Assembly (NCBI GenBank): GCA_002694465.1
Contig: NZMG01000030.1
Coordinates: forward strand, 3,488 to 67,487
Origin: Flavobacteriaceae bacterium
Lineage (GTDB): Bacteria; Bacteroidota; Bacteroidia; Flavobacteriales; Flavobacteriaceae
Direction: 5' to 3'
DNA length: 64,000 nt
The notes beneath the pieces are model-generated. The model was not told where the DNA came from, searched no databases, and saw only the letters and a list, made by a program, of their open reading frames with translations. This document shows positions 11,753 to 24,835 of this stretch, piece after piece (within the stretch, counting starts at the first letter, position 1; every line of letters starts with the position of its first letter). The position numbers and the translations under genes are program-made.

Positions 11753-11866
11753 TTTTAAAAATGTTCAATTTAATCCCTAATTAGATTCACTTTTTTGAAA
11801 TCTGATTTTTATCAGTTCAAGAAAATTCAATTTTGCTATTTTTAAACCTGGCAAGAACAACGATTT

Positions 11867-13612
11867 ATGAATTACGGGTTTACCGACTTTCTACAATTAT
11901 TTGGGTCTCTGGGTCTCTTCCTCTTCGGAATGAAAGTAATGAGCGACGCCCTTCTTAATTTGGCTGGCGATCGCATGCGAAAGATATTGGCAACCATGAC
12001 TTCCAATAAGTACATGGGTATTTTTACGGGGTTTTTAATTACTTCTGTTATACAGTCTTCCTCTGCGACAACCTTGATGGTTGTTAGTTTTTCTAACGCT
12101 TCATTGTTAACGCTTACAGAAGCAATAAGTGTTATTATGGGGGCCAATATTGGTACTACAATTACAGCTTGGTTAATAACAATTTTAGGGTTTAAAGTTA
12201 GTATGAGTGCTATTGCATTACCCTTAGTGGGTTTTGGTTTTGCTTTTACTTTCTCAAAAAAGCCTTCATTAAAAAATTGGGGTGCCTTTATAATTGGGTT
12301 TTCCATTTTATTTATAGGATTACAATTCTTAAAAGATGCTGTACCAGATATTAAAAGCAATCCTGAGATTTTAGCTTTTTTAACGAGCTACACAGATTTA
12401 GGCTTTTGGTCTATATTAATCTTTTTACTTATAGGAACATTATTAACTGTAATAATTCAGTCATCCAGTGCTACTATGGCACTAACGTTAATTATGACTG
12501 CACAAGGATGGATTTCATTCGAGTTGGCTGCTGCTATGGTTTTAGGGGAAAATATAGGAACAACCATTACGGCCAATCTAGCTGCAATAGTAGCAAACTT
12601 CCAAGCAAAGCGAACGGCAAGAGCGCACTTTTTATTTAATATTATTGGGGTAATTTGGGTATTGATTTTATTTTACCCATTCCTAAAATTAGTTACTTGG
12701 GTTTCAGAAAAAGCAGGCTCGGATTCTCCTTATCTTACTGCTGCTGCTATTCCTGTTGCAATTTCTTTGTTTCACACTATTTTCAATATCTGTAATACAT
12801 TTTTATTGATGTGGTTCATCAAGCCTATAGCAAAAATTGTGGAACGATTAGTGCCAGAAAAAGAAATTGTTGAGAAAGAAATGGATGAGCCTAAATTTCT
12901 TATGAATAGCGTTCTGGAATTTCCAGAAACATTAATTCATTCATTAAAAAATGAATCGAAATATTTGTTTGAAAATTCAATTCTTGAAATAGTTTCAAAA
13001 GCAATGAATATTATTTCAACAGATTTAAAATCTGAAACTAAAATTAAAAAGGTAGTAAAGAAGAATAAACAAGACTTAAAAACGGATGTAGATAATTTGT
13101 ATTACACCAAAGTAAAAAATATTTATGGGAAGATTATTGAGTATGCAACAAAGGGGCAGAGTAGTTTAAAACTTACCCAAAAGCAAACCAAAGAAATTTC
13201 GGAAGTTAAATTAGCCAATAGAGTTATGGTAGAGATAGTTAAAAATTGTGTTGGGCTAAATAAGAATGTTACTAAGTACTTTAATTCTGAAAATGAATTT
13301 GTTAAAAAAGAATACTATAAATACCGAAAAAAAATCGCTAAAGTTATAAGAGTAATTTATCTATTCGCTGAGCAAGATGAGAAAGATAAATATTATTTAA
13401 AATTAAGAAAGCTAAAACAAGAAGCAGAACAGGAATACCATCATTCTAATGAATCTATTAATAGTTTAATACGTCAAAATCTCATTAGTGTTTCCATGGC
13501 TTCTTCTTTAATTAATGATAATGATACTGTTAATGATATTATTAAGAAACTCATCATCGTAGCAGAGTTGTTATTTACTACTAAAGATAGTTTATTAGAA
13601 AATGGAACATAA
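11867..13612 (+). CDS. Na/Pi cotransporter family protein (NptA-like) with PhoU-like C-terminal region
   Basis: Two QSSSAT repeats, GANIGTT and GENIGTT motifs, soluble helical C-terminus. Confidence 0.93.
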   Translation: MNYGFTDFLQLFGSLGLFLFGMKVMSDALLNLAGDRMRKILATMTSNKYMGIFTGFLITSVIQSSSATTLMVVSFSNASLLTLTEAISVIMGANIGTTITAWLITILGFKVSMSAIALPLVGFGFAFTFSKKPSLKNWGAFIIGFSILFIGLQFLKDAVPDIKSNPEILAFLTSYTDLGFWSILIFLLIGTLLTVIIQSSSATMALTLIMTAQGWISFELAAAMVLGENIGTTITANLAAIVANFQAKRTARAHFLFNIIGVIWVLILFYPFLKLVTWVSEKAGSDSPYLTAAAIPVAISLFHTIFNICNTFLLMWFIKPIAKIVERLVPEKEIVEKEMDEPKFLMNSVLEFPETLIHSLKNESKYLFENSILEIVSKAMNIISTDLKSETKIKKVVKKNKQDLKTDVDNLYYTKVKNIYGKIIEYATKGQSSLKLTQKQTKEISEVKLANRVMVEIVKNCVGLNKNVTKYFNSENEFVKKEYYKYRKKIAKVIRVIYLFAEQDEKDKYYLKLRKLKQEAEQEYHHSNESINSLIRQNLISVSMASSLINDNDTVNDIIKKLIIVAELLFTTKDSLLENGT

Positions 13613-13657: not shown

Positions 13658-15901
13658 TTAATTCTTTTTATAACTATTGTAATACTCTTCCATTAAGTGG
13701 ATAAGAGCTGTCACAAGATCTTTAGTTTCCATTAATAAATTGAAATAAAGTGTGGTATTCTTTGGACTAGACTCTTCCGTTCTAGTTCTTTGAATTTGCT
13801 TCTCAATTTTTGCTGAGATATCTGCATAAGCCTTTTCTTTTCGGTCTAAAATACCTTCAAGTCTTTCAAAATCCTTGGTATCAAAAATATTTACAATATC
13901 CATTAGTAGGTGCTCGAATGAAGCATTTATTTCTTGAAGATCTTTAATTTGATTAAATTTTAGGGCCTTGTGATTATTGTTAACATGCTTGTAACTCTTT
14001 TTTGTTATGTATTCTAAGGACTGAGCCACATCGGTTAAATATCCAAGTATAATGATATAGAAGTTACTACCTCTTACACTTGTATCATCAAGATTTTTAA
14101 TAAAATAGAATATGTTATTTCTTAAATCTTCAATTTCATTATCGAGTTTTTCAACCCCCTTCTTTGTCTTTTTAAGTTTCTTTTCATCTTGCTTTGCAAG
14201 ACCTTTAATTACCTCTGTATAAATCTTATTTGTTCTGGAAACAACATTTGAAATGTTATTTGCACTTTCAGAAATAATTCCTTGTACCGTTTTACTTTCA
14301 GACTTTTTTAAACCAGTTTTGTCTAGTTTTTCTATTCCTTTTCTTTTATGTGACAAATAATTTCTTATTAATAATGCTAATGCGACTAATAATAGGATAG
14401 CAATAGCAGGTCCTCTTCCTATATAAATGATATAGGTTAAGGTTCCCGCGGCTAAAAAAGCACTGAATGCTGTAAAAAACCAGCCTCCAATGACGTTTAG
14501 TACTCCTGCTACTCGATATACCGCACTTTCACGCCCCCAAGCTCTATCTGCCAATGAGGTACCCATAGCTACCATAAAAGTTACATAGGTAGTGGAAAGA
14601 GGTAACTTCATTGAAGTGGCAATGGCAATAAGAATACCAGCTACCGTTAGGTTTATAGAAGCACGAATCAAATCAAATGCAGGTATTTCGTGAGCTTTAC
14701 CAGCTGGAATTTTTACCTCTGGTTTTTCGAAACTTTTCGCAATTTTATCTTGTGTTGACTGAGGTATAGCACCCCCTAATAATGAAGCTAATTTTGTACT
14801 TCCTTTAACAACAGCACGAGATAAGATGTTAGGATTAAATTTTTCTGCCCCGTCACCTTGTCTAGAGAGTCCTATTTCTGTTTCGGTAACAGTTCTTGCT
14901 TTTTTGGAAAACCAAAGTGTTAATACCATTATAGCACCAGAGACAAATAGTAAAAGAGGTTCTGCAGGGACTTTTTCTTCAAGAACATTCATTGAAAATG
15001 CATTCGCCGCTTCTCCAGAGACAGACCAAGCTTCATAACTATGGTATGCAGCCATAGGAACACCAATAAAGTTAACTAAATCGTTTCCAGAAAACGCTAA
15101 TGCTAACCCAAATGTCCCAATTGCTATTACTACCAATAGGATGCTTTTTTTAAATATTTTAGTAAATAATATTGAAAAGGCAGTCCAAAAAAGAAACCCA
15201 ATTCCTATTACTATCCAAAAATTTGTAGCTAGAATTTCTTTAAAAGCACTATAATTTGGAGCTCCTTTAAGTCCTTTAAAAAAGATAAAATAGCTAATTG
15301 CGGTTAGGGTTAAACCCCCAAAAATGGCCCCAAAATTCTTCATTTTTTGTTCGTAATGAAACGAAAATACAAGCCTAGATAACCATTGAACCAGTGCTCC
15401 TAGGGTAAAAGCAATTACTACTGAAAGTAAAATACCTGTGATAATTTCTATTGCCTTTTCAGAATTTATATAATTTCCTATATCAGCCATCGTTTCCGAA
15501 GAGGACGCGCCAATTTTTATAAGCGCCATTACTACAGTAGCACCTAGTAAAGAAAAAACTATGGATACTGTAGTGGAAGTGGGCATTCCTAGTGTATTGA
15601 AGAAATCTAGTAATAAAATATCCGTAATCATTACGGCTAAAAATATTATCATAATTTCATCAAAATAGAATTCTCCAGGGATAAAAATCCCTTTACGAGC
15701 AACTTCCATCATCCCACTGGAATAAACGGCTCCAATAAAAATTCCTAAACTCGCAACAATCATAATGGTACGGTAAGGAATAGCTTTAGAACCAATTGCA
15801 GAATTTAGAAAGTTTACAGCATCATTACTAACACCAACAACTAAATCAACAATAGCTAAAACCGCTAAAGCTACAAGCATTAAAATGTAAATATTATCCA
15901 T
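13658..15901 (-). CDS. PiT/PHO4 family inorganic phosphate transporter with PhoU-like C-terminal domain
   Basis: GVSNDAVNFLNSAIGS, GMPTSTTVSIV, GNDLVNFIGVP, LPLSTTYV signature motifs. Confidence 0.93.
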   Translation of the reverse strand: MDNIYILMLVALAVLAIVDLVVGVSNDAVNFLNSAIGSKAIPYRTIMIVASLGIFIGAVYSSGMMEVARKGIFIPGEFYFDEIMIIFLAVMITDILLLDFFNTLGMPTSTTVSIVFSLLGATVVMALIKIGASSSETMADIGNYINSEKAIEIITGILLSVVIAFTLGALVQWLSRLVFSFHYEQKMKNFGAIFGGLTLTAISYFIFFKGLKGAPNYSAFKEILATNFWIVIGIGFLFWTAFSILFTKIFKKSILLVVIAIGTFGLALAFSGNDLVNFIGVPMAAYHSYEAWSVSGEAANAFSMNVLEEKVPAEPLLLFVSGAIMVLTLWFSKKARTVTETEIGLSRQGDGAEKFNPNILSRAVVKGSTKLASLLGGAIPQSTQDKIAKSFEKPEVKIPAGKAHEIPAFDLIRASINLTVAGILIAIATSMKLPLSTTYVTFMVAMGTSLADRAWGRESAVYRVAGVLNVIGGWFFTAFSAFLAAGTLTYIIYIGRGPAIAILLLVALALLIRNYLSHKRKGIEKLDKTGLKKSESKTVQGIISESANNISNVVSRTNKIYTEVIKGLAKQDEKKLKKTKKGVEKLDNEIEDLRNNIFYFIKNLDDTSVRGSNFYIIILGYLTDVAQSLEYITKKSYKHVNNNHKALKFNQIKDLQEINASFEHLLMDIVNIFDTKDFERLEGILDRKEKAYADISAKIEKQIQRTRTEESSPKNTTLYFNLLMETKDLVTALIHLMEEYYNSYKKN

Positions 15902-15921
15902 TTTTTAAAAATTATTTTCGG

Positions 15922-15966
15922 GCAAAATTCTTAATTAATTTATGATTACCTGTTATCAAATTGTTA
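15922..15966 (-). promoter_or_regulatory. PiT promoter with Pho-box-like TAACA direct repeats
   Basis: Plus-strand TGTTA at 15951 and 15962 (11-bp spacing), 29 and 40 nt from GCAAA (the -7 TTTGC) at 15922. Confidence 0.6.
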
Positions 15967-15973
15967 CGTTTTA

Positions 15974-17176
15974 TTAAAAATGCAGGTCAAAACCTATTCT
16001 AAATTCAATGCTATCTGCATCACCTTCTAACGTAGTATAACTAACATCAGATTGAACTTTAAGTTTGTGGCCTACAATATACTTAGAAACACCTAAAGTA
16101 TACTGTTCTTCACCTAGTCTACTAGTAATGTTATTATAATCTGTATTAGTAAACCTTCCTGCAATTTCATAATTATTTTTAAATAAATAACCAGCTTGTA
16201 AATTTAATGCATTACCTACTAATACAATATCTCCAGTTTCGGTTCCGTCTGCTTCGATGGCTACAGGGTTTTCGGCATCTCTATTAGCATATTCTCCCAT
16301 AAATGAAAAACCTTTGTATTTAAACATGGTATCAATAAACAAAGTGGTAATATCGGTTTCGTATAAAGAGCCATCTTCCAAAAACATATAGGAACCTAAA
16401 TTACTTCTTGTTTTTACAGCATCTTGATTTAAATCGTAAGTTACTCCTATCATTAATTTTGGTGAAGCCTCTCTAGCTAAATCTGCTTGAAAATAATCTC
16501 CATTGGATTTAAATAATCCAAATGGAAGGAACTCTAATCTACCGGTATATTGTAACCCACCTTCATTTCCTTCGGTGATATTTCTTCCTTCTCCCTGTGA
16601 AATAGCAACTTTTTCACGAATTATAAAATCTCCGCCCAAATTTGCGTGATGACGTAATTGCATTCCTATATCGCGGTCAATATTGAAGCGGCTGTTTAGT
16701 AAGGATCGGTCTATTAATTGCATATTTGCTGAAGAAACAACACGTTCTACGTTTCCTGGCAATTTTGTTTGCCCTACCCATAATTCGAAATTTTCATAAA
16801 AATTCCACATAATTACCGCATCCAATATATATCTAGGCGTATTTCGGTTAAATTCATTTGCTCCTGATATGTCTCTATTAGAAAGACCTAATTCAATTTT
16901 ATATTCAAGTTTAGGTGAGTATGCCCATCCATCAAATTTTAAACGAGCACGTCTTATTAAAAAATTATGCTCTGGGCTATTATAATTATTACCATTATAA
17001 TCCCAGTTCGTTTCAGAACGAAATTGAATCCTTGGAGCAAATTTGATACTAAAAGTACTATCTTTTGCAGTGTAATTAATGATTCCTTTTCCAAATGAAG
17101 TGTCACTAATTTCTTGAGCTTCAATAGTAAGTGTGGAAAATAAAATTGCCAAAATGGCAAACTTTAAAAGTTTCAT
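15974..17176 (-). CDS. Phosphate-selective porin (OprO/OprP family)
   Basis: Signal peptide, FLIRRARLKFDG, VGQTKLPGNVERVVSS, C-terminal DLHF; context among Pi transporters. Start reassigned to MKLLKF (17176). Confidence 0.85.
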   Translation of the reverse strand: MKLLKFAILAILFSTLTIEAQEISDTSFGKGIINYTAKDSTFSIKFAPRIQFRSETNWDYNGNNYNSPEHNFLIRRARLKFDGWAYSPKLEYKIELGLSNRDISGANEFNRNTPRYILDAVIMWNFYENFELWVGQTKLPGNVERVVSSANMQLIDRSLLNSRFNIDRDIGMQLRHHANLGGDFIIREKVAISQGEGRNITEGNEGGLQYTGRLEFLPFGLFKSNGDYFQADLAREASPKLMIGVTYDLNQDAVKTRSNLGSYMFLEDGSLYETDITTLFIDTMFKYKGFSFMGEYANRDAENPVAIEADGTETGDIVLVGNALNLQAGYLFKNNYEIAGRFTNTDYNNITSRLGEEQYTLGVSKYIVGHKLKVQSDVSYTTLEGDADSIEFRIGFDLHF

Positions 17177-17202
17177 GTAAATCGTTTTAAGTTTTTGTCG
17201 GT

Positions 17203-17247
17203 GCAAAGAACTTAAACCAATGTTAACTGAATGTTACCTATAAGTTA
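17203..17247 (-). promoter_or_regulatory. Porin promoter with four phased Pho-box-like half-sites
   Basis: Plus-strand ACTTA 17210, TGTTA 17221, TGTTA 17232, AGTTA 17243 (all 11 bp apart), at offsets 7/18/29/40 from GCAAA at 17203. Confidence 0.65.
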
Positions 17248-17265
17248 TTTTTAAAAATATTATAC

Positions 17266-17291
17266 AAAAAGGGTCGCCCATTGGGCGACCC
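17266..17291 (-). terminator. Terminator of the candidate phosphate-island sRNA
   Basis: Perfect 9-bp GC-rich stem gggtcgccc-att-gggcgaccc, with a T run only on the minus strand. Confidence 0.85.
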
Positions 17292-17355
17292 CACACATTG
17301 ATAAAATCTAGTCGACAAAAACTTAACGATTTATATGTGTATGTGTATTAAACAC
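17266..17355 (-). ncRNA. Candidate ~90-nt antisense sRNA of the phosphate island
   Basis: Own terminator, TTTATTTG -7-like element at 17368-17361, 5' hairpin GUGU-UUAAU-ACAC, and a 25-nt stretch complementary to the porin and Na/Pi symporter 5' UTRs. Confidence 0.7.
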
Positions 17356-17478
17356 AAAAACAAATAAAGGCCATCTGTATAGCTAAATCGTCATCTAAAT
17401 ATTAAATAAATATTAAGTTTTCTCTTTAATGCTGAAAAGGCATATATAGCACTGAAAATCAGTTTAATAATAATTCAA

Positions 17479-17533
17479 TGTTAATTTAATGTTATGCAAA
17501 CCTTTATTAATTGTTACCAATTTTGTAAATTTG
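17479..17533 (+). promoter_or_regulatory. Promoter of the 17.5-kb gene overlapped by TGTTA repeats
   Basis: Exact -7 TAAATTTG at 17526-17533; TGTTA at 17479, 17490 and 17512 (11 and 22 bp spacing). Confidence 0.55.
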
Positions 17534-17552
17534 AGCTATTAACCCTTAAAAT

Positions 17553-17921
17553 ATGTTTATCATGAGAAAATTATTAGTAGTATTTACTATTTCTCTTTTA
17601 GCAGGGTCGGCTTTTTCACAAGAAAAAGTACAAGATGAATTTGTTAAAGAAGGAAAAGTGATTAAAGCTACGCTTTACCATGAAAATGGAATGGTAGCTC
17701 AAACTGGTTTTTACACATTGGATAATAAACTAGAGGGTGAATGGATAAGTTATGATGCAGTAGGAAATAAAACTGCTGTAGCTCACTACAACAAGGGAAA
17801 CAAAGTTGGTACATGGTATTTTTACCAAGGTAATGAGATTAAGGAGGTAAATTACTCCAATTCTAAAGTTGCCAAAGTGACTTCTTTTAAGATTACAGAT
17901 GCTGTTGTGATATCCAACTAA
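17553..17921 (+). CDS. Secreted MORN-variant repeat protein (YwqK-like)
   Basis: Signal peptide (start may be 17562); repeats YHENGMVAQTGFY, LEGEWISYDAVGNK, KVGTWYFY. Confidence 0.75.
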   Translation: MFIMRKLLVVFTISLLAGSAFSQEKVQDEFVKEGKVIKATLYHENGMVAQTGFYTLDNKLEGEWISYDAVGNKTAVAHYNKGNKVGTWYFYQGNEIKEVNYSNSKVAKVTSFKITDAVVISN

Positions 17922-17940
17922 AGACAAAAACTTACAAATC

Positions 17941-17972
17941 AAAAAATGCCTCAATTTTGAGGCATTTTTTGT
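17941..17972 (+). terminator. Rho-independent terminator
   Basis: aaaaaatgcctca-attt-tgaggcatttttt perfect stem. Confidence 0.88.
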
Positions 17973-18044
17973 TTATGGGATATATTTAAAACTTTAACAA
18001 AGTAATAAGATTTGAAAATTTTTAAAATATATATTTTTGGGGTC

Positions 18045-18317
18045 ATGTTAAAATCGGTTGCACATAGCTTTTTTTCGCTTTTTTTCATCATAGCGTTGTT
18101 AGGACCTTCTGTTTTTCAGTTGTGTGCTAAAGATGTTGCTCCAATTGTTATAACTATTCAGGAGGAAGAGGCGAAAGAAAAAATATTTTCAATTACCGAT
18201 TACGTTTCTCATATTCATGTTTATGTTCCCAAAAAGGAATTAAATACTGCCTACGTTGAAAGGCGCTATATACACACTTCAGAAGTTTTTCTACCTCCCC
18301 CAGAACATATTAGTTAG
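18045..18317 (+). CDS. Small uORF ending in ...EVFLPPPEHIS upstream of SulP; probably leaderless
   Basis: 90 aa from ATG 18045 (the track uses TTG 18012); hydrophobic N-terminus, acidic middle, C-terminal PPP. Exact -7 TATTTTTG at 18032-18039 puts the TSS at about the ATG. Confidence 0.7.
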   Translation: MLKSVAHSFFSLFFIIALLGPSVFQLCAKDVAPIVITIQEEEAKEKIFSITDYVSHIHVYVPKKELNTAYVERRYIHTSEVFLPPPEHIS

Positions 18318-18391
18318 TTTTTCGATTTTTTAAAAAATTAATATAAAATCTGTTTGAAAAGTATTTTTTCAAACCACTAATCTATTATAAT

Positions 18392-19984
18392 ATGTTTAAA
18401 TCGTTACGAAATGACATACCAGCGAGTATTGTCGTATTTTTTGTAGCATTGCCGTTATGTTTAGGTATTGCCCTTGCCAGTGGAGCACCTTTATTTTCAG
18501 GTTTAATTGCTGGTATTGTAGGGGGGGTTATTGTTGGATCTTTAAGTGGGTCTAAAATTGGAGTTTCTGGTCCTGCGGCAGGATTAGCAGCCATTGTATT
18601 GACAGCCATAGGAACCTTAGGTGGGTTTCAAAATTTTTTGGTGGCTGTTGTATTGGCAGGTGTAATACAGCTTTTGTTTGGAATTTTAAAAGCTGGAATT
18701 ATTGCATATTACTTTCCTTCTTCTGTGATAAAGGGAATGCTAACAGGAATAGGAATTATTATTATATTAAAACAAATCCCCCATTTTTTTGGATATGATC
18801 CAAATCCAGAAGGAGATTTTGCTTTTTTTGAAGTTTCAGGAGATAATACTTTTTCAAGTCTTATTAAGACCATTAATAACATCATCCCCGGCTCTGCCTT
18901 AATTGGTATAGTTGGCTTAGGAATATTAATCCTGTGGGAAAAAGTGTTGTCTAAAAAAGGAAAGATATTTCAATTAGTTCAAGGACCCTTGGTAGCCGTG
19001 ATTGTGGGGATTGCGTTTTATGCACTTACAAAGTCTCATGATTCACTTTCCATTGCAGGATCACATTTGGTAAGTGTACCTGTTCCAGAGGATGCCGCCT
19101 CTTTTTTAGGACAATTTAGTTTTCCAAATTTTTCAGTCATTACCCAACAAGATATTTGGATTGTGGCATTTACTTTAGCTTTGGTAGCGAGTCTTGAAAC
19201 TCTGCTTTGTGTTGAAGCAACCGATAAACTTGACCCAAATAAAAACGTTACACCTACTAATAGGGAACTTTTCGCACAAGGGGCGGGAAATATTATTTCG
19301 GGATTAATTGGAGGGTTGCCTATTACACAAGTAATTGTGAGGAGTTCTGCTAACATCCAATCTGGAGGAAAGAGTAAAATGTCCACCATTATACATGGGT
19401 TTTTCCTATTAATTTCTATCATATTGATACCAAAATTGCTTAATATGATTCCCCTTTCTGTACTTGCAGCAATTTTACTTGTGGTTGGTTATAAATTGGC
19501 AAAACCGCAATTATTTAAAAAGATGTATGATTTAGGGTGGAAACAATTTGTACCTTTTACGGTAACAGTTTTGGGGATTATTTTTATTGATCTTTTATAT
19601 GGAATAGGATTAGGATTACTAGTAGGGATTGTTGTAATTCTTATTAAAAGTTATCAAAATTCCCATTTCCTGCATAAAGAGGATGTAAGTAATGGAGTCC
19701 AGAAATTGAAAATGACGTTAGCGGAGGAAGTGACCTTTTTTAACAAAGGAGCAATATTAAAGGAATTGGATAGAATCCCTAGTGATTCATATGTTGAGTT
19801 AGACGTAAGAAAAACTCGATATTTGGATAATGATATTATTGAAATATTAGATGATTTTGCGTATAAAGCTAAGGAAAGAAATATTACGATTAAGTTAATT
19901 TCTGAAAGAGGGACGGTTGTTAACCCTCCTAGTTATATTGAATTTTTTAAATTAAGACCAGTAACCGAACAATTTACAAACTAA
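18392..19984 (+). CDS. SulP family inorganic anion (probably bicarbonate) transporter
   Basis: ALPLCLGIALASGAP..SGLIAGIVGG, VSGPAAGL, NRELFAQGAGN, C-terminal STAS-like domain; directly upstream of a carbonic anhydrase. Confidence 0.93.
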   Translation: MFKSLRNDIPASIVVFFVALPLCLGIALASGAPLFSGLIAGIVGGVIVGSLSGSKIGVSGPAAGLAAIVLTAIGTLGGFQNFLVAVVLAGVIQLLFGILKAGIIAYYFPSSVIKGMLTGIGIIIILKQIPHFFGYDPNPEGDFAFFEVSGDNTFSSLIKTINNIIPGSALIGIVGLGILILWEKVLSKKGKIFQLVQGPLVAVIVGIAFYALTKSHDSLSIAGSHLVSVPVPEDAASFLGQFSFPNFSVITQQDIWIVAFTLALVASLETLLCVEATDKLDPNKNVTPTNRELFAQGAGNIISGLIGGLPITQVIVRSSANIQSGGKSKMSTIIHGFFLLISIILIPKLLNMIPLSVLAAILLVVGYKLAKPQLFKKMYDLGWKQFVPFTVTVLGIIFIDLLYGIGLGLLVGIVVILIKSYQNSHFLHKEDVSNGVQKLKMTLAEEVTFFNKGAILKELDRIPSDSYVELDVRKTRYLDNDIIEILDDFAYKAKERNITIKLISERGTVVNPPSYIEFFKLRPVTEQFTN

Positions 19985-19995
19985 AATAAAAGAGT

Positions 19996-20625
19996 ATGAA
20001 AGCACACACTAGAGAAACACAGGCTACAATGACGCCTCAAAAGTCATTACAATATTTAAAAGAAGGAAACGAACGATTTCAAAATAACTTAAAGGCAAAT
20101 AGAAACCTCTTAGAGCAAGTAAACGATACTAGCGATGGGCAATTTCCATTTGCAACCATTTTAAGCTGTATAGATTCTAGAGTTTCTGCAGAGTTAGTTT
20201 TTGACCAAGGATTAGGAGATATATTTAGCGTAAGGATTGCTGGAAATTTTGTGAATGAAGATATCTTAGGAAGCATGGAGTTTGCTTGCAAATTGGCTGG
20301 AACAAAGCTCATAGTTGTTTTAGGACATACCGCATGTGGCGCTGTAAAAGGGGCTTGCGACCATGCCGAAATGGGAAACCTTACAAAACTTATTCAGAAA
20401 ATAACGCCTGCAGTAAATGCTGTTACCGAGCCTAAAGATGAAAGTTTACGTAATTCGGCCAATGCTGAATTTGTGGATGCGGTTTCTGAAAAGAATGTTC
20501 AACTTACTATTGATCGAATACATGCAGAAAGTCCAATACTTTCCGAAATGGAGAAAAATGGTGAAATCATGATTATTGGAGCTATGTATGATATCAATAC
20601 TGGTGCAGTTACATTTTATGAATAA
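19996..20625 (+). CDS. Beta-class carbonic anhydrase
   Basis: GQFPFATILSCIDSRV, VRIAGN, VVLGHTACGAV Zn-ligand motifs. Confidence 0.95.
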   Translation: MKAHTRETQATMTPQKSLQYLKEGNERFQNNLKANRNLLEQVNDTSDGQFPFATILSCIDSRVSAELVFDQGLGDIFSVRIAGNFVNEDILGSMEFACKLAGTKLIVVLGHTACGAVKGACDHAEMGNLTKLIQKITPAVNAVTEPKDESLRNSANAEFVDAVSEKNVQLTIDRIHAESPILSEMEKNGEIMIIGAMYDINTGAVTFYE

Positions 20626-21928: not shown

Positions 21929-24736
21929 TTAAAATTTGTATTTAAGTTGTAATGATAGATTTATTCCTTTCTTGTAAGAAGCAATTCCTTTTCCGTTTGG
22001 AGAGGTGACAAAAATGTCTCCTGTAGCGGTTTCTCTTATATATTCAATACTTGGGTCAAGTAAGTTAAATGCACTTGCGTTTACTTCTAAATTATCTCCT
22101 ATTTTGTTTTTGAAAACAAGATTTAGTGTGGGTACGCCTTTTTCAATAATATTTCCTAATTGTCCAGATCCTATTGCATCAATTCTATCACTGAAGTATG
22201 AAAATACTGCATTAAGAGTAGGTTTATAATTACCAAAAGTTGGACTATAGTTAATATCTGCATTTACAATTATGGGTGCTGCACCCTGAAGTTCTTCAGT
22301 TCTACCTTCTTCAAAAGTAGTGGTGAAAACTCCTTCTGAGCTTTTTAAATCTTGCTTGGTATATGTATAGGTAGCATTGAATCCAGCAGAGAGCTGCGCC
22401 TCTTGATTTTCATCTACTAAAATATTTTTTCTCACTTCAAGTTCAGCTCCAACCACCTCTGCCTTATCTCCTGTTCTAAAATAACGTTGTGTTCCAGTTG
22501 CGTCATTTGCAATCACTCGGTTAATAGGGTCATTAATTTGTTTTCCAAAAGCAGCAATTGAAAGCAATTCGCTTCTTCCAAAAAACCATTCGTATTTTAA
22601 ATCTACATTATAGATTTTTGAAAAAGAAGGGTCCGATAATAAGTCTTGGTTCCCTCCAACACGGTTAGAAACATCTTCATACACAAAGGGAGCTACTTCC
22701 TTAAACTCAGGGATAGAAACTGTTTGACTTGCAGAAAAACGTAAGTTTTGTTCATCGTTTAATGCATATCTTAAATTAAGACTTGGTAAGTAGAAATTTT
22801 CATACGATTTTCTAAAACCTGGATCGGTTTCGGTTAAGTTAATAACATCATATTTTATTGATTGGGTTAGAGACTCTGCTCTAAATCCAGGAACGATCAA
22901 AAATTTATCCCCTAAAGCAATTTCTGTATTAATATAGGCAGCGTGTACGTCTAGATTTCCAGTATAAGTGTTTTCGTTTAAACCTGGATAGTTAGTATTG
23001 TCGATTCCTCCTTCTGGGTAAATTGGGTTGAAAACAAAAGTGTTGTAAACAATCCCAAGGTTTTCTAAAGTAAATACATTATTGAAGTTGTTGACATCCA
23101 AAGCTGGAGTATTGGGCTCAATGATTTCGTAACCATAACGAATATTGTCGAAATAGCGCTCCTTGGTTCTTCCGTTGTATCCAAAGTTGAATTTTAGTTT
23201 TTCAGAAGCAGTATATTCTAAGTTAATACGACTATTTAATTCTTCATCTTCGATATTTTGAAAATAACGTTGATTATCGAAATTAATATTATTGAAAAAA
23301 GAAGGGTTTGTTGCTTCATCTGCGTCTAAGGCTAAATCATAGCGCTCAAGGGTAATACGTTTTCTGTCGGGTTGGCGAGCAAATACTTTATTGTAACCAA
23401 CACCCCAATCGACTTTAAATTTTTCATCGATTGAATGCGAACCAATAAGCTGGTTTACAAAAATCATATCTTGCTCAAATTGAACGTTCATTTGATAAAA
23501 CCCTTTATCGGTATCCAAAATAGCATCTCTGTTTCTTCCCCCACCATCAATACCAAAGTATCCAACTTCATCTGTGGCATCATTCACAAAAAGAGAGTTG
23601 AAACTTACCTTATGGTCACTATTGATTTTGTAAACCAAATTCATCATTCCGGTAGTGTTAGTACCATACTCATATTCCTGAGCCTTTGGAAAACTTTTCT
23701 TTTCCACAGTACTAAAATCTGTAGCTTCCCCTTCTCGATATTCAAAATTATTACTGAAAGACCCTGTAAAGAATAAGCTTAATCGAGAATCATTTTTAAA
23801 CTTAAAAGTAGTTCCTCCAGAAATAGCAGCACTTAAAGCAATAGGCTCATAGGCTGCTACTGGATCAACTCCGTGTGATAAAACAACTGCAAATGGGTTG
23901 TTGTCATAGCGGTTATAATATCCAAAAAAGCTTGTTCCTTCACTTTTTACAAAAGCTTTCCCAGAGGCTGTAGTGTTTATTCCTGAGCCTACCTGTACAT
24001 CGATATAAAACTTTCCAGCGTAATCTTTTGAAGTGATGTTTACGTTTCCTGCAGCAAAATCTCCATAAAATTGAGCGTCGTATGCTTTACTTACGGCAAC
24101 ATTTTGAATAATATCTGATGAGAATAGAGAAAGATTGATATTTTTTCTTTCAATATCATTTGATGGGAGAGATAAGTTGTTGTAAGTAGTATTTTGATAG
24201 CGATCTCCAAGACCCCTTACATACACATTTCCACCACCTTCTTGTTTTGAAACTCCAGAGATTTTAGCAACCGCTCCAGCGGCATCATTTACTCCTTTTC
24301 TAGATAATTCTTCTGCTCCAATACTTTGTTTAATGGTTGTAGCATTTTTTTGTTCAAGGAGTAAAGCAACTTCACTTTCTCTTTTGGTAGTTGTTTTAAT
24401 AACTACTTCATCTAATGTTGCAGCACTGGCCCCCATTGGGACATTTATGGTGGTTACCTTATTTGCTTCTATGACTACATTATTTATATCTACTGTTTCA
24501 TACCCTACAAAACTATAGGATACAGTATAAGTACCTACTTTCAAATTTTCCAATCTATATAAACCGTCAATGTCCGAGGTTGTTCCTGTTGTAGTGCCTT
24601 TAATGATTATATTTGCAAAAGGTAGCGGTTCGTTACTATATTCTTTGTCGGTTAATTTTCCAACCAAAGTACCTGTCTCTTGTGCAAAAGTTGAAGCTGT
24701 AAAAACTAAAACTAGAATTGTAAAAAGTTTCTTCAT
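21929..24736 (-). CDS. TonB-dependent receptor (N-terminal carboxypeptidase-regulatory-like domain, plug, barrel)
   Basis: EPLPFANIIIKGT, LDEVVI TonB-box-like segment, YVRGLGDRYQNT plug motif, C-terminal YKF. Start probably MKKLFT (24736). Confidence 0.92.
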   Translation of the reverse strand: MKKLFTILVLVFTASTFAQETGTLVGKLTDKEYSNEPLPFANIIIKGTTTGTTSDIDGLYRLENLKVGTYTVSYSFVGYETVDINNVVIEANKVTTINVPMGASAATLDEVVIKTTTKRESEVALLLEQKNATTIKQSIGAEELSRKGVNDAAGAVAKISGVSKQEGGGNVYVRGLGDRYQNTTYNNLSLPSNDIERKNINLSLFSSDIIQNVAVSKAYDAQFYGDFAAGNVNITSKDYAGKFYIDVQVGSGINTTASGKAFVKSEGTSFFGYYNRYDNNPFAVVLSHGVDPVAAYEPIALSAAISGGTTFKFKNDSRLSLFFTGSFSNNFEYREGEATDFSTVEKKSFPKAQEYEYGTNTTGMMNLVYKINSDHKVSFNSLFVNDATDEVGYFGIDGGGRNRDAILDTDKGFYQMNVQFEQDMIFVNQLIGSHSIDEKFKVDWGVGYNKVFARQPDRKRITLERYDLALDADEATNPSFFNNINFDNQRYFQNIEDEELNSRINLEYTASEKLKFNFGYNGRTKERYFDNIRYGYEIIEPNTPALDVNNFNNVFTLENLGIVYNTFVFNPIYPEGGIDNTNYPGLNENTYTGNLDVHAAYINTEIALGDKFLIVPGFRAESLTQSIKYDVINLTETDPGFRKSYENFYLPSLNLRYALNDEQNLRFSASQTVSIPEFKEVAPFVYEDVSNRVGGNQDLLSDPSFSKIYNVDLKYEWFFGRSELLSIAAFGKQINDPINRVIANDATGTQRYFRTGDKAEVVGAELEVRKNILVDENQEAQLSAGFNATYTYTKQDLKSSEGVFTTTFEEGRTEELQGAAPIIVNADINYSPTFGNYKPTLNAVFSYFSDRIDAIGSGQLGNIIEKGVPTLNLVFKNKIGDNLEVNASAFNLLDPSIEYIRETATGDIFVTSPNGKGIASYKKGINLSLQLKYKF

Positions 24737-24757
24737 TATCTTGATTAATTTCACGTG

Positions 24758-24835
24758 GCAAAGATGACCCTGTTATGTAAAGTTGATGTTAATCTAAAAT
24801 TATGATTAAGTCATTTCAAGGTTATCTAAATGTTA
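24758..24835 (-). promoter_or_regulatory. TBDR promoter with six 11-bp-phased half-sites
   Basis: Plus-strand TGTAA 24776, TGTTA 24787, AATTA 24798, AGTCA 24809, GGTTA 24820, TGTTA 24831, at offsets 18-73 from GCAAA at 24758. Confidence 0.6.

What the first reader, a model, noticed from the sequence alone, without database searches (positions are those of the whole stretch)
17174..17337. 25-nt antisense match between the sRNA and the whole porin 5' UTR, including the AUG
Seen: plus-strand 17313-17337 (cgacaaaaacttaacgatttatatg) is an inverted copy of the porin leader at 17200-17174 (sense: cgacaaaaacttaaaacgatttacATG). 24 of 25 sRNA nucleotides pair, with one 2-nt bulge and one mismatch, including 14 contiguous bp and the start codon. 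From the position of the porin -7 element, the duplex would cover essentially the entire 5' UTR. Inference: the sRNA blocks porin translation in trans. Alternatively, read-through of the sRNA terminator gives a long leader that folds back on the AUG in cis, acting as an attenuator-like switch.
Basis: partly seen in the sequence, partly recalled or inferred. Interest (0 to 1): 0.85.

Follow-up and report, generated by a model that had tools for sequence, protein, structure and literature searches.

The report
Small RNA silencing phosphate porin
Just upstream of a phosphate-porin gene lies a roughly 93-nt terminated small RNA whose loop pairs with the porin mRNA's whole leader and start codon; it is conserved with compensatory changes in nearly half of sampled Flavobacteriaceae genomes and probably limits phosphate-uptake proteins.

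Summary
Window 17313-17337 is an inverted copy of the porin leader 17174-17200: 14 perfect bp, a 2-nt bulge, then 10 of 11.

It is part of a conserved module: a small RNA gene on the minus strand (about 17356 to 17264), then a Pho-box-like promoter, then a phosphate-porin/PiT-transporter operon. The RNA has a -7-type promoter box, a 5' hairpin, a second stem presenting the seed in its loop, and an intrinsic terminator.

A covariance model finds the RNA in about 179 of 401 Flavobacteriaceae genomes. A pattern search found the module in none of about 195 genomes from other families of the class. Rfam and the literature searches gave nothing.

Pairing is kept by compensatory and wobble changes: G.U 45 cells against A.C 6, and cognate duplexes are more stable than non-cognate ones (p = 5e-5). 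It stops at the predicted porin transcription start. The porin start region is the best predicted target of 7,209 in the genome.

A second target, a Na/Pi symporter 5.4 kb away on the other strand, shows the RNA acts in trans.

Verdict: a new, undescribed member of the class of small RNAs that block porin translation.

The parts
17263..17356 (-). Small RNA gene, about 93 nt, from the predicted TSS (~17356) to the end of the terminator U-tract (~17264)
   Evidence: The covariance model R1 hit covers window 17263-17365 at 68.8 bits and is the only strong copy in the genome. The fold has MFE -31.4 kcal/mol and z -4.7. There is no conserved ORF on either strand (sequence inspection).
17361..17368 (-). 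-7-type promoter box TTTATTTG of the sRNA; predicted TSS 5 nt after the G
   Evidence: A TTTG-ending box is conserved at this position in the related loci read by eye (GATATTTG, TTCTTTG, TTATTTG). The sigma-A box TAnnTTTG occupies -12 to -5 in flavobacteria (PMC9723704). Promoter function is inferred, not shown.
17398..17416 (-). Two 11-bp-phased direct repeats TTAATATT-N3-TTAATATT upstream of the sRNA promoter; a possible regulator site
   Evidence: The equivalent TTAATAATTACTTAATATT is conserved in other genera. Function unknown.
17343..17355 (-). SL1, a 5'-terminal hairpin GUGU-UUAAU-ACAC
   Evidence: The same position carries a different hairpin in other genera (GUCUUAAGAC, UUGCC..GGCAA, GUCCUCGGAC, GUGUACAAAAGCACAC), read by eye. 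This was not counted formally.
17293..17340 (-). SL2: 5' arm 17340-17328, apical core-seed loop 17327-17309 (GUUAAGUUUUUGUCGACUA), 3' arm 17308-17293
   Evidence: Fold. In 69 loci the cognate arms pair better than non-cognate arms: -7.7 against -4.4 kcal/mol, permutation p = 5e-5.
17313..17337 (-). Seed: the 25 nt complementary to the porin leader and AUG
   Evidence: Covariation.
17262..17292 (-). Intrinsic terminator: a 10-bp GC stem (17292-17270) plus a U-tract
   Evidence: All 144 unique loci have a 6-14 bp hairpin plus a T-run 52-69 nt after the core. All nine terminator-stem pairs show compensatory changes in 63 sequences.
17219..17237 (-). Pho-box-like direct repeat GTAACATT-CAG-TTAACATT in the -33 position of the porin promoter
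   Evidence: It is conserved in nearly all the related loci read. Only 4 perfect copies of AACATT-N4-TAACATT occur in the 3.24-Mb genome. Pho boxes are two 11-bp direct repeats (PMC9306846). PhoB binding is inferred.
17204..17210 (-). -7-type box (TTCTTTG) of the porin promoter; predicted TSS at about 17199
   Evidence: Conserved as TTCTTTGCAG or TTATTTGCAG. Box position -12 to -5 comes from PMC9723704.
17174..17200 (-). Porin mRNA target site: the whole 5' UTR (about 23 nt) plus AUG
   Evidence: It is the best of 7,209 candidate start regions in the genome: -26.4 kcal/mol against a mean of -8.7, sd 2.75.
15974..17176 (-). Phosphate-selective porin gene (Porin_O_P)
   Evidence: PF07396, E = 7e-11.
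13658..15901 (-). PiT/PHO4-family phosphate transporter, downstream of the porin on the same strand and probably in the same operon
   Evidence: PF01384. It follows the porin in all 20 genera inspected and is adjacent in 19. Its own start region is not complementary to the seed.
11849..11869 (+). Second target site: leader and AUG of the Na/Pi symporter gene (CDS 11867..13612)
   Evidence: Rank 7 of 7,209 start regions. 21 contiguous pairs, 4 of them G.U (3 in the core, 1 at the AUG), at -20.5 kcal/mol. PF02690 and NF037997. Orthologous leaders in G003, G017 (perfect GTCGACAAAAACT), G054 and G125 are complementary; G251 only partly.
17923..17934 (+). Third complementary site, GACAAAAACUUA, in the 3' UTR of the divergent small secreted-protein gene (17553..17921)
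   Evidence: 12 bp, -15.2 kcal/mol. It is conserved in 8 loci of the genus while its flanks vary. Role unknown.
17477..17495 (-). Second perfect Pho-box-like repeat, ATAACATT-AAA-TTAACATT, between the divergent gene and the sRNA
   Evidence: (D1); conserved across genera. Which promoter it serves is unresolved.

Best explanation
This is an independent, single-copy, roughly 93-nt small RNA gene on the minus strand, encoded in tandem just upstream of its main target. It is transcribed from its own sigma-A-type promoter, starts with a small protective hairpin, presents a U-rich core seed (UUAAGUUUUUGUCG) in the apical loop of a second stem, and ends at a strong intrinsic terminator. The porin-PiT operon starts about 65 nt further downstream, from a separate activator-type promoter whose -33 region is replaced by a Pho-box-like 11-bp direct repeat. 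The sRNA pairs in trans with the porin mRNA from its first transcribed nucleotides to the AUG. Pairing probably nucleates at the 14-15 bp core and then spreads into the 5' arm of SL2. Flavobacterial mRNAs have no Shine-Dalgarno sequence and need an open A-rich leader, so this duplex should stop 30S loading and shut off the porin; by polarity or decay it may also lower the PiT transporter. In this genome and several other genera the same seed also covers the leader and AUG of a Na/Pi symporter on the opposite strand. The RNA therefore looks like a post-transcriptional brake on phosphate entry across both membranes. The favoured logic, which is inferred, is a threshold: a basally made sRNA silences leaky transcripts until Pho-driven transcription outruns it. 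Shown computationally: the anatomy, conservation, covariation, target ranking and second target. Inferred: transcription, the direction of the effect (repression), the regulators, and independence from a chaperone.
For: Anatomy: terminator, three-hairpin fold with z -4.7, and verified coordinates.

It lies in a divergent intergenic region, so the terminator ends no protein gene.

Conservation: the strict sRNA-core/leader-core pattern occurs in 160 of 401 family genomes and 132 of 302 genera. Model R1 gives E <= 1e-8 in about 179 of 401 (hand count). The pattern is absent from about 195 genomes of other families in the class. Named hosts include Winogradskyella, Flagellimonas, Aequorivita, Algibacter, Arenibacter, Christiangramia, Polaribacter and Tenacibaculum.

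The terminator covaries and the SL2 arms covary.

Seed-leader co-evolution:
- Cognate duplexes average -24.1 against -20.4 kcal/mol for non-cognate, p = 5e-5.
- The extension beyond the core alone gives -5.5 against -3.8, p = 5e-5, with the AUG paired in 61 of 69 loci.
- Double changes keep the pair: A-U/U-A/C-G at k=4, U-A/A-U at k=2, GG/CC in L043 and L044, GUCA/UGAC in L018 and G319.
- Among non-Watson-Crick cells there are 45 G.U against 6 A.C. All four leader core changes seen in three loci that the strict pattern had missed (G101, G114, G253) are wobble-compatible.

The helix ends exactly at k=-10 (A opposite G in 91 of 144 loci), one nucleotide from the TSS predicted from the -7 box.

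The porin start region is the top-ranked target in the genome.

Where the sRNA is absent but the porin remains, the leader core has decayed in G070, G068 and G067.

Trans action: the Na/Pi symporter leader on the opposite strand is complementary here and in G003, G017, G054 and G125. Orphan sRNA copies with an intact seed exist without a downstream porin in G024, G202, G309, G138 and G185. The spacer between terminator and porin promoter varies from about 40 to more than 300 nt.
Against: Both promoters are inferred from motifs that deviate from TAnnTTTG.

The core positions k=-9..-1 were fixed by the search patterns, so their invariance is partly ascertainment. The permutation tests ignore phylogenetic relatedness.

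The 5' arm of SL2 that pairs with the AUG-proximal part of the leader is also paired inside the sRNA. UUUCAU/AUGAAA complementarity is easy to obtain because AUGAAA is a common gene start.

G046 keeps the conserved leader without any detectable sRNA.

In the orphan-sRNA genomes no target stood out above the reversed-pattern control.

The sign of the effect (repression) is assumed from position only.
Confidence: 0.72

Rival explanations
1. Cis fold-back. The relevant RNA is a long porin leader that starts at the 'sRNA' promoter (or at the upstream Pho box), reads through the terminator, and folds so that the upstream segment sequesters the leader and AUG. The terminator would then act as an attenuator-like switch rather than as the end of a diffusible sRNA.
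For: A 196-nt read-through RNA (17355 to 17160) folds with the seed-leader helix in its minimum-energy structure: -57 kcal/mol, z -6.8. Tandem same-strand linkage is kept in most genomes. A second Pho-box-like site lies upstream of the sRNA.
Against: A conserved activator-type promoter (Pho-box-like repeat plus -7 box) lies between the terminator and the leader, and complementarity stops at its predicted TSS. The terminator is strong and universally kept, with no conserved anti-terminator. The spacer is unconserved and varies from about 40 to more than 300 nt. The Na/Pi symporter target lies on the other strand, and orphan sRNAs exist without a downstream porin; neither can work in cis. Read-through could still add a minor layer.
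Confidence: 0.1
2. The pairing is real but has a different sign or role. The sRNA might stabilise or activate the porin mRNA, for example by protecting its 5' end from 5'-dependent RNases, or the porin leader might act as a sponge that titrates the sRNA away from other targets.
For: The duplex starts at the very 5' end of the mRNA, a position that can protect an mRNA from 5'-end-dependent decay. A further seed-complementary site sits in a 3' UTR, which is typical of sponges. Both promoters carry related 11-bp repeats, so the two RNAs could be co-induced.
Against: In 61 of 69 loci the predicted duplex includes the AUG, and it covers the whole 23-nt leader, which leaves no room for ribosome loading. 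All characterised Bacteroidota sRNAs that pair at translation-initiation regions repress (GibS and FopS; PMC11697453).
Confidence: 0.08
3. A DNA-level element. The two arms would be inverted binding sites for a DNA-binding protein (looping or repression), or the relic of an inverted duplication or MITE, with no RNA-RNA function.
For: Inverted repeats that flank a promoter are classic operator arrangements. The sRNA-side arm contains the palindrome GTCGAC.
Against: There is a single copy in the genome and no element-like repeats. Deviations from perfect complementarity are G.U-type 45 to 6 over A.C-type, an asymmetry that only RNA of minus-strand polarity explains. The arms sit inside a unit with promoter, hairpins and terminator that covary as RNA. 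The spacing between arms varies from 112 to more than 300 bp, which fits poorly with a fixed protein bridge. A neutral relic would not survive with compensatory changes across more than 130 genera.
Confidence: 0.04

Closest known systems
FopS / GibS sRNAs of Bacteroides thetaiotaomicron (PMC11697453; PMC7366714)
   Same: Same phylum, which lacks Hfq and ProQ. Both are intergenic sRNAs with a sigma-A-type promoter and an intrinsic terminator. [quoted passage not shown]
   Different: No sequence or Rfam similarity. This RNA is single-copy rather than a 14-member paralogous family. Its seed sits in the apical loop of an internal stem rather than in a single-stranded 5' end. Its targets are phosphate-uptake genes, not PULs. 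It is encoded in tandem directly upstream of its main target. It is restricted to Flavobacteriaceae. RbpB dependence is unknown.
Enterobacterial porin-controlling sRNAs (MicF/ompF, MicC/ompC, MicA/ompA, InvR/ompD); from my own knowledge
   Same: Short terminated RNAs that repress porin synthesis by pairing with the 5' UTR or start region. Some are encoded next to a porin gene, for example micF beside ompC.
   Different: Those act with Hfq on Shine-Dalgarno-containing leaders through shorter imperfect duplexes, and they are not encoded in tandem upstream of the gene they silence. There was no Rfam hit to any of them here. Here the duplex covers the complete SD-less leader from +1 to the AUG.
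Rfp18 and other Rfp sRNAs of Flavobacterium psychrophilum (PMC9723704)
   Same: Same family of bacteria. Both are a three-stem-loop sRNA with the pairing region in a loop, conserved beyond the species, with predicted targets that encode secreted or surface proteins.
   Different: Different targets (metalloproteases), and the effect reported there is positive on mRNA level. No homology is apparent. Four sampled genomes of one large genus of the family had no pattern match, although that genus is unnamed.
Terminated leader RNAs and attenuators, and riboswitch-derived trans-acting sRNAs such as Listeria SreA; from my own knowledge
   Same: A short terminated transcript directly upstream of, and on the same strand as, a regulated gene.
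   Different: Here the downstream gene has its own conserved promoter after the terminator. There is no alternative anti-terminator fold or ligand-type conserved core. The RNA also has a target on the other strand.

Membership tests
Trans-acting base-pairing sRNA (generic class) | Independent transcription unit: own promoter and own terminator, non-coding | tested here: inconclusive
   The terminator is present and covaries. A -7-type box and a 5' hairpin are conserved. There is no conserved ORF.
Trans-acting base-pairing sRNA (generic class) | [quoted passage not shown] | tested here: met
   The porin start region ranks first of 7,209.
Trans-acting base-pairing sRNA (generic class) | Acts on an mRNA transcribed from another locus or strand | tested here: met
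   This is met at the level of conserved complementarity only. The Na/Pi symporter leader lies on the opposite strand, 5.4 kb away, and is complementary in at least 5 genera. Orphan sRNA copies also exist.
FopS / GibS family and any other Rfam sRNA family | Match to the family covariance model | tested here: not met
   cmscan of 15500-19000 against Rfam 15 at E <= 10 gave no hit overlapping 17260-17360; the only nearby hit was a sub-threshold OxyS match at 17151-17251 (16.6 bits against a gathering score of 75), which is chance.
Transcription attenuator or riboswitch leader (cis) | No promoter between the terminator and the regulated ORF; mutually exclusive terminator and anti-terminator folds | tested here: not met
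   A conserved Pho-box-like repeat plus a -7 box lies between the terminator and the leader. The spacer length is very variable. No anti-terminator was found in the folds.
MITE or terminal-inverted-repeat mobile element | Multiple copies per genome; the inverted repeats are the element's ends | tested here: not met
   BLAST of the own genome finds only the locus itself. Model R1 finds one strong copy. The locus is syntenic across genera.
Pho regulon promoter (PhoB-activated) | Two 11-bp direct repeats (the Pho box) replacing the upstream promoter element, in front of a phosphate-acquisition gene | tested here: inconclusive
   The architecture is met for the porin promoter: TAACATT-N4-TAACATT lies 11 nt from the TTTG (definition from PMC9306846). 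The consensus for Flavobacteriaceae PhoB is not established, the other perfect copies in the genome do not precede obvious Pho genes, and binding was not tested.

The most novel reading that the evidence does not exclude
A family-wide post-transcriptional layer of the phosphate-starvation response in marine Flavobacteriaceae. One loop-seed sRNA, acting without Hfq, would set a threshold for phosphate entry across both membranes, covering the outer-membrane porin with the PiT operon and the inner-membrane Na/Pi symporter. It would be wired to the same or related 11-bp-repeat regulator sites as its targets. In this genus it would be buffered by a seed-complementary 'sponge' site in the 3' UTR of the divergently transcribed, Pho-box-flanked small secreted-protein gene.
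Probability: 0.3. Interest if true: 0.78.

Novelty: new member of a known kind. Interest (0 to 1): 0.62.

Why it matters
Very few small RNAs of Bacteroidota have a known target. Outside gut Bacteroides and one fish pathogen almost nothing is known.

This one offers a clear, conserved, testable sRNA-target pair in the marine Flavobacteriaceae that dominate the degradation of algal blooms, where phosphate supply limits growth. It also links RNA control to phosphate uptake in a group where many genomes may lack the classical Pst system (my recollection; not checked here).

It is a clean natural case for studying two things. The first is how an sRNA blocks initiation on Shine-Dalgarno-less mRNAs, because the duplex covers the leader from +1 to the AUG. 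The second is how such RNAs work without Hfq.

The covariance model built here could seed an Rfam family and improve annotation of several hundred genomes. The seed-leader pair could also serve as a portable repression module for flavobacterial genetics.

Tried and rejected
- Rfam: nothing at E <= 10 over the locus.
- Literature: six full-text searches and three papers read (PMC9723704, PMC9306846, PMC11697453) gave no description of this RNA.
- Earlier findings of the scan: nothing relevant.
- MITE or repeat element: rejected, single copy.
- A weak BLAST hit on contig C38 (L004) lies inside coding sequence and was rejected.
- A whole-genome RNAduplex scan first timed out. With a k-mer prefilter it was noisy because the GU-rich CACAUACACAU stretch pairs with many coding sites. 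It was replaced by a scan of candidate start regions.
- The MAFFT/RNAalifold alignment recovered only the terminator. SL1 and SL2 are misaligned because of indels, so SL2 was tested by cognate against non-cognate arm energies. SL1 covariation is by eye only.
- PiT start region: not complementary to the seed.
- Unlinked sRNA in G046, which keeps the conserved leader but has no adjacent sRNA: none found.
- Trans targets in genomes with orphan sRNAs: the 12-mer core complement was no more frequent than the reversed control. Two hits next to start codons (a nitroreductase-like ORF in G024 and a membrane protein in G309) are unsupported.
- Pho regulon check: the other two perfect Pho-like boxes precede a thioesterase-like ORF and an unknown secreted protein, so the PhoB assignment stays an inference.
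Full report
**1. The observation**

The minus-strand ORF 15974..17176 is a phosphate-selective porin (Porin_O_P, PF07396). It is followed on the same strand by a PHO4/PiT-family phosphate transporter, 13658..15901.

The 376-nt region upstream of the porin is a divergent intergenic region. The next gene, 17553..17921, is on the plus strand.

Arms 17187-17200/17313-17326 are 14 nt and perfect. Arms 17174-17186/17325-17337 match at 12 of 13 and are shifted by 2 nt. Read as RNA from the minus strand, 17337-17313 (CAUAUAAAUCGUUAAGUUUUUGUCG) pairs with the porin leader CGACAAAAACUUAAAACGAUUUACAUG at -26.4 kcal/mol.

A perfect 14-mer inverted repeat appears in 6 of 2000 dinucleotide shuffles of the region. 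The single window is therefore suggestive, not conclusive.

A strong minus-strand intrinsic terminator (17292-17270 plus a T-run) sits between the two arms. No protein gene lies upstream on that strand, so it must end either a non-coding RNA or a leader.

**2. Anatomy of the RNA**

The minus strand has these features in order:
- A -7-type box, TTTATTTG, at 17368-17361.
- A small hairpin, SL1, at 17355-17343.
- A second imperfect stem, SL2 (arms 17340-17328 and 17308-17293), which presents GUUAAGUUUUUGUCGACUA (17327-17309) in its loop.
- The terminator.

The fold has MFE -31.4 kcal/mol, z -4.7, and no shuffle folds as well.

In flavobacteria the sigma-A box TAnnTTTG occupies -12 to -5 (PMC9723704). 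That places the sRNA start at about 17356, immediately before SL1, and gives an RNA of about 93 nt.

Downstream of the terminator come:
- A direct repeat, GTAACATT-CAG-TTAACATT (17237-17219).
- Eleven nucleotides later, TTCTTTG (17210-17204).
- The leader.

The same rule puts the porin start at about 17199, which gives a 23-nt leader. The median 5' UTR in F. psychrophilum is 24 nt, and these bacteria lack Shine-Dalgarno sequences.

**3. It is not a repeat element or a known RNA**

The own genome holds no other copy, either by BLAST or by the covariance model built here: one hit at 68.8 bits, the next at 33 bits. Rfam 15 gives nothing over the locus at E <= 10. Six literature searches and three papers gave no description of it.

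**4. Conservation**

- The region is alignable through the genus and, in parts, in other genera.
- A strict pattern (TTTTTGTCR, 90-135 nt, YGACAAAAA) hits 160 of 401 genomes of the family, in 132 of 302 genera. With few exceptions the listed hits show the same layout: seed, GC hairpin with T-run, TAACATT repeat, TTTGCAG, CGACAAAAAC leader, and the ATG of a roughly 400-aa porin.
- Model R1 gives full-length hits at E <= 1e-8 in about 179 of 401 genomes (my count).
- About 195 genomes from other families of the class have no pattern match.
- A scan of named genomes places it in Flaviramulus, Winogradskyella, Flagellimonas/Muricauda, Aequorivita, Arenibacter, Algibacter, Christiangramia, Polaribacter, Tenacibaculum, Lutibacter, Galbibacter, Tamlana and others.
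- In 20 genera inspected over 20 kb, the order small secreted protein (divergent), sRNA, porin, PiT is nearly invariant.

**5. The RNA structure is under selection**

- All 144 distinct loci have a 6-14 bp hairpin plus a T-run 52-69 nt after the core.
- In 63 sequences, all nine terminator-stem pairs show compensatory double changes.
- The SL2 arms differ between lineages, for example ACACAUAUAAAUC/GAUUUUAUCAAUGUGU here, UUUCAUAUAAU/AUUAUCAUGA in the largest group, and GGAUUUC/GAAAUCC in another. Cognate arms pair better than non-cognate ones: -7.7 against -4.4 kcal/mol, p = 5e-5.
- SL1 is replaced by other hairpins at the same place in other genera. This is by eye only.

**6. Seed and leader co-evolve as RNA**

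- Across 38 loci, cognate sRNA-leader duplexes are more stable than non-cognate ones: -24.1 against -20.4 kcal/mol, p = 5e-5.
- The same holds for the part outside the conserved core: -5.5 against -3.8, p = 5e-5. The AUG is paired in 61 of 69 loci.
- Anchored counts over 144 loci show an ungapped helix of 15 pairs that stops abruptly. One position further, the bases are A opposite G in 91 loci and A opposite C in 25. That position is one nucleotide from the predicted porin start.
- Pair-preserving double changes occur at k=2 (U-A 126, A-U 11), at k=4 (A-U 87, U-A 24, C-G 3) and at k=1 (G-C in two loci where the leader reads AAAAACC).
- GUCA/UGAC replaces GUCG/CGAC in L018 and in G319.
- Among non-Watson-Crick cells, G.U outnumbers A.C by 45 to 6. 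In three loci that the strict pattern had missed (G101, G114 and G253), all four leader core changes are wobble-compatible. This asymmetry is expected only if both arms are read as minus-strand RNA. It argues against a DNA operator or a neutral duplication.
- Caveats: the nine core positions were fixed by the search patterns, cells are not independent events, and the permutation tests ignore phylogeny.

**7. Loss cases**

I checked eight close porin orthologues in pattern-negative genomes.
- Three still have the module, with a longer spacer.
- G070, G068 and G067 lack the sRNA, and their leaders have lost the core (CGATAAAACTAAATA, CGGAAACAAC, unrelated). G070 and G068 still keep the TAACATT repeat.
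- G046 lacks the sRNA but keeps the core.
- G043 could not be classified.

So leader conservation mostly, but not always, depends on the sRNA.

**8. Trans action and a second target**

I scanned 7,209 candidate start regions of the genome with the seed. The porin ranks first (-26.4 kcal/mol; mean -8.7, sd 2.75). Rank 7 is the gene 11867..13612 on the plus strand. That gene is a Na/Pi symporter (PF02690, NF037997, TIGR00704).

Its leader, UGGCAAGAACAACGAUUUAUG (11849-11869), pairs over 21 contiguous nucleotides, AUG included, at -20.5 kcal/mol. Four of the pairs are G.U, three of them in the core.

Orthologous leaders behave as follows:
- G003: CGACAAGAACAGCGAUUUAUG.
- G017: a perfect GUCGACAAAAACU.
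- G054: three blocks of 8, 5 and 6 complementary nucleotides.
- G125: GUAGUCGACAAAAC directly after its -7 box, -27 kcal/mol with its own sRNA.
- G251: a partly decayed version.
- G072 and G041: no complementarity.

This target is on the other strand, 5.4 kb away, so it can only be reached in trans.

A third complementary site, GACAAAAACUUA at 17923-17934, lies in the 3' UTR of the divergent gene. It is conserved through the genus while its flanks vary.

Several genomes keep an intact sRNA with no porin downstream: G024, G202 and G309. In G138 and G185 the PiT gene follows the sRNA directly. I could not identify targets there above control.

**9. Cis alternative**

A read-through RNA would fold back on the AUG: -57 kcal/mol, z -6.8. 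Four things make cis fold-back at most an accessory:
- The porin has its own conserved promoter after the terminator.
- The spacer is unconserved and varies from about 40 to more than 300 nt.
- No anti-terminator is evident.
- The Na/Pi target and the orphan sRNA copies cannot be explained in cis.

**10. Regulation (inferred)**

The porin promoter has two 11-bp direct repeats where a -33 element would be. This is the architecture of a Pho box (PMC9306846). Only four perfect copies exist in the genome, and two of them are in this intergenic region.

The sRNA promoter looks more like a complete sigma-A promoter, with phased TTAATATT repeats further upstream.

My favoured model is a threshold. 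A basally made sRNA silences leaky porin and symporter transcripts until Pho-driven transcription exceeds it. A feed-forward loop, with co-induction, is equally compatible with the sequence.

**11. Comparison and novelty**

The mechanism is that of known sRNAs that block translation initiation of outer-membrane transporters: FopS and GibS in Bacteroides (PMC11697453), and MicF, MicC and MicA in enterobacteria.

It is not a member of any described family, since the Rfam test was not met. It differs from them in several ways: a loop-presented long seed, a duplex covering an entire SD-less leader, tandem linkage to its main target, a phosphate-uptake regulon, and a distribution limited to Flavobacteriaceae.

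I class it as a new member of a known kind.

**12. Limits**

No expression or functional data could be obtained.

Noticed in passing
window 11849-11869 (+), CDS 11867..13612: The Na/Pi symporter leader and AUG are complementary to the sRNA seed over 21 contiguous pairs (4 G.U). The orthologous leaders in other genera keep the complementarity, so this is a likely second target, reached in trans.
   Followed up: yes
window 17923-17934 (+): A 12-nt perfect complement of the sRNA core lies in the 3' UTR of the divergent small-protein gene, between the stop codon and the terminator. It is conserved in the genus while its flanks vary. It may be a sponge or a third target.
   Followed up: partly
window 17477-17495 (-): A second perfect Pho-box-like repeat (ATAACATT-AAA-TTAACATT) is conserved across genera. 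It could drive a longer minus-strand transcript through the sRNA, or serve the divergent plus-strand gene, whose -7 box TAAATTTG lies at 17526-17533.
   Followed up: partly
window 17398-17416 (-): 11-bp-phased TTAATATT direct repeats lie upstream of the sRNA promoter (TTAATAATTACTTAATATT in most genera). They differ from the Pho-like box by one base per repeat and have no known binding protein.
   Followed up: partly
window 17553-17921 (+): A 122-aa secreted protein with no Pfam or NCBIfam match is divergently transcribed from the sRNA. It keeps this position in 18 of 20 genera inspected. Its function is unknown but is probably linked to the phosphate locus.
   Followed up: partly
L250 (G138), L251 (G185), L258 (G309), L261 (G202), L266 (G024): These genomes carry sRNA copies with an intact seed but no porin downstream. 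In two of them the PiT gene follows directly. The targets of these copies were not identified.
   Followed up: partly
window ~24818-24834 (-), upstream of the TonB-dependent receptor 21929..24754: A one-mismatch copy of the Pho-like repeat lies about 80 nt upstream of a TonB-dependent receptor gene. The receptor is followed by a 399-aa protein with no family match and faces an HD-domain protein gene.
   Followed up: no
window 18392-20625 (+): A SulP-family anion transporter is immediately followed by a beta-carbonic anhydrase. This is a common bicarbonate or sulfate transporter pairing and is unrelated to the finding.
   Followed up: no
window 26308-28881 (+): An M36 fungalysin-type metallopeptidase with a PA domain and a type-IX secretion C-terminal sorting domain.
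   Followed up: no
L175 (G046): The porin leader keeps the conserved core CGACAAAAACTAATAG although no sRNA is detectable next to it or elsewhere in that genome by the 13-mer. This is either a recent loss or a second constraint on the leader.
   Followed up: partly
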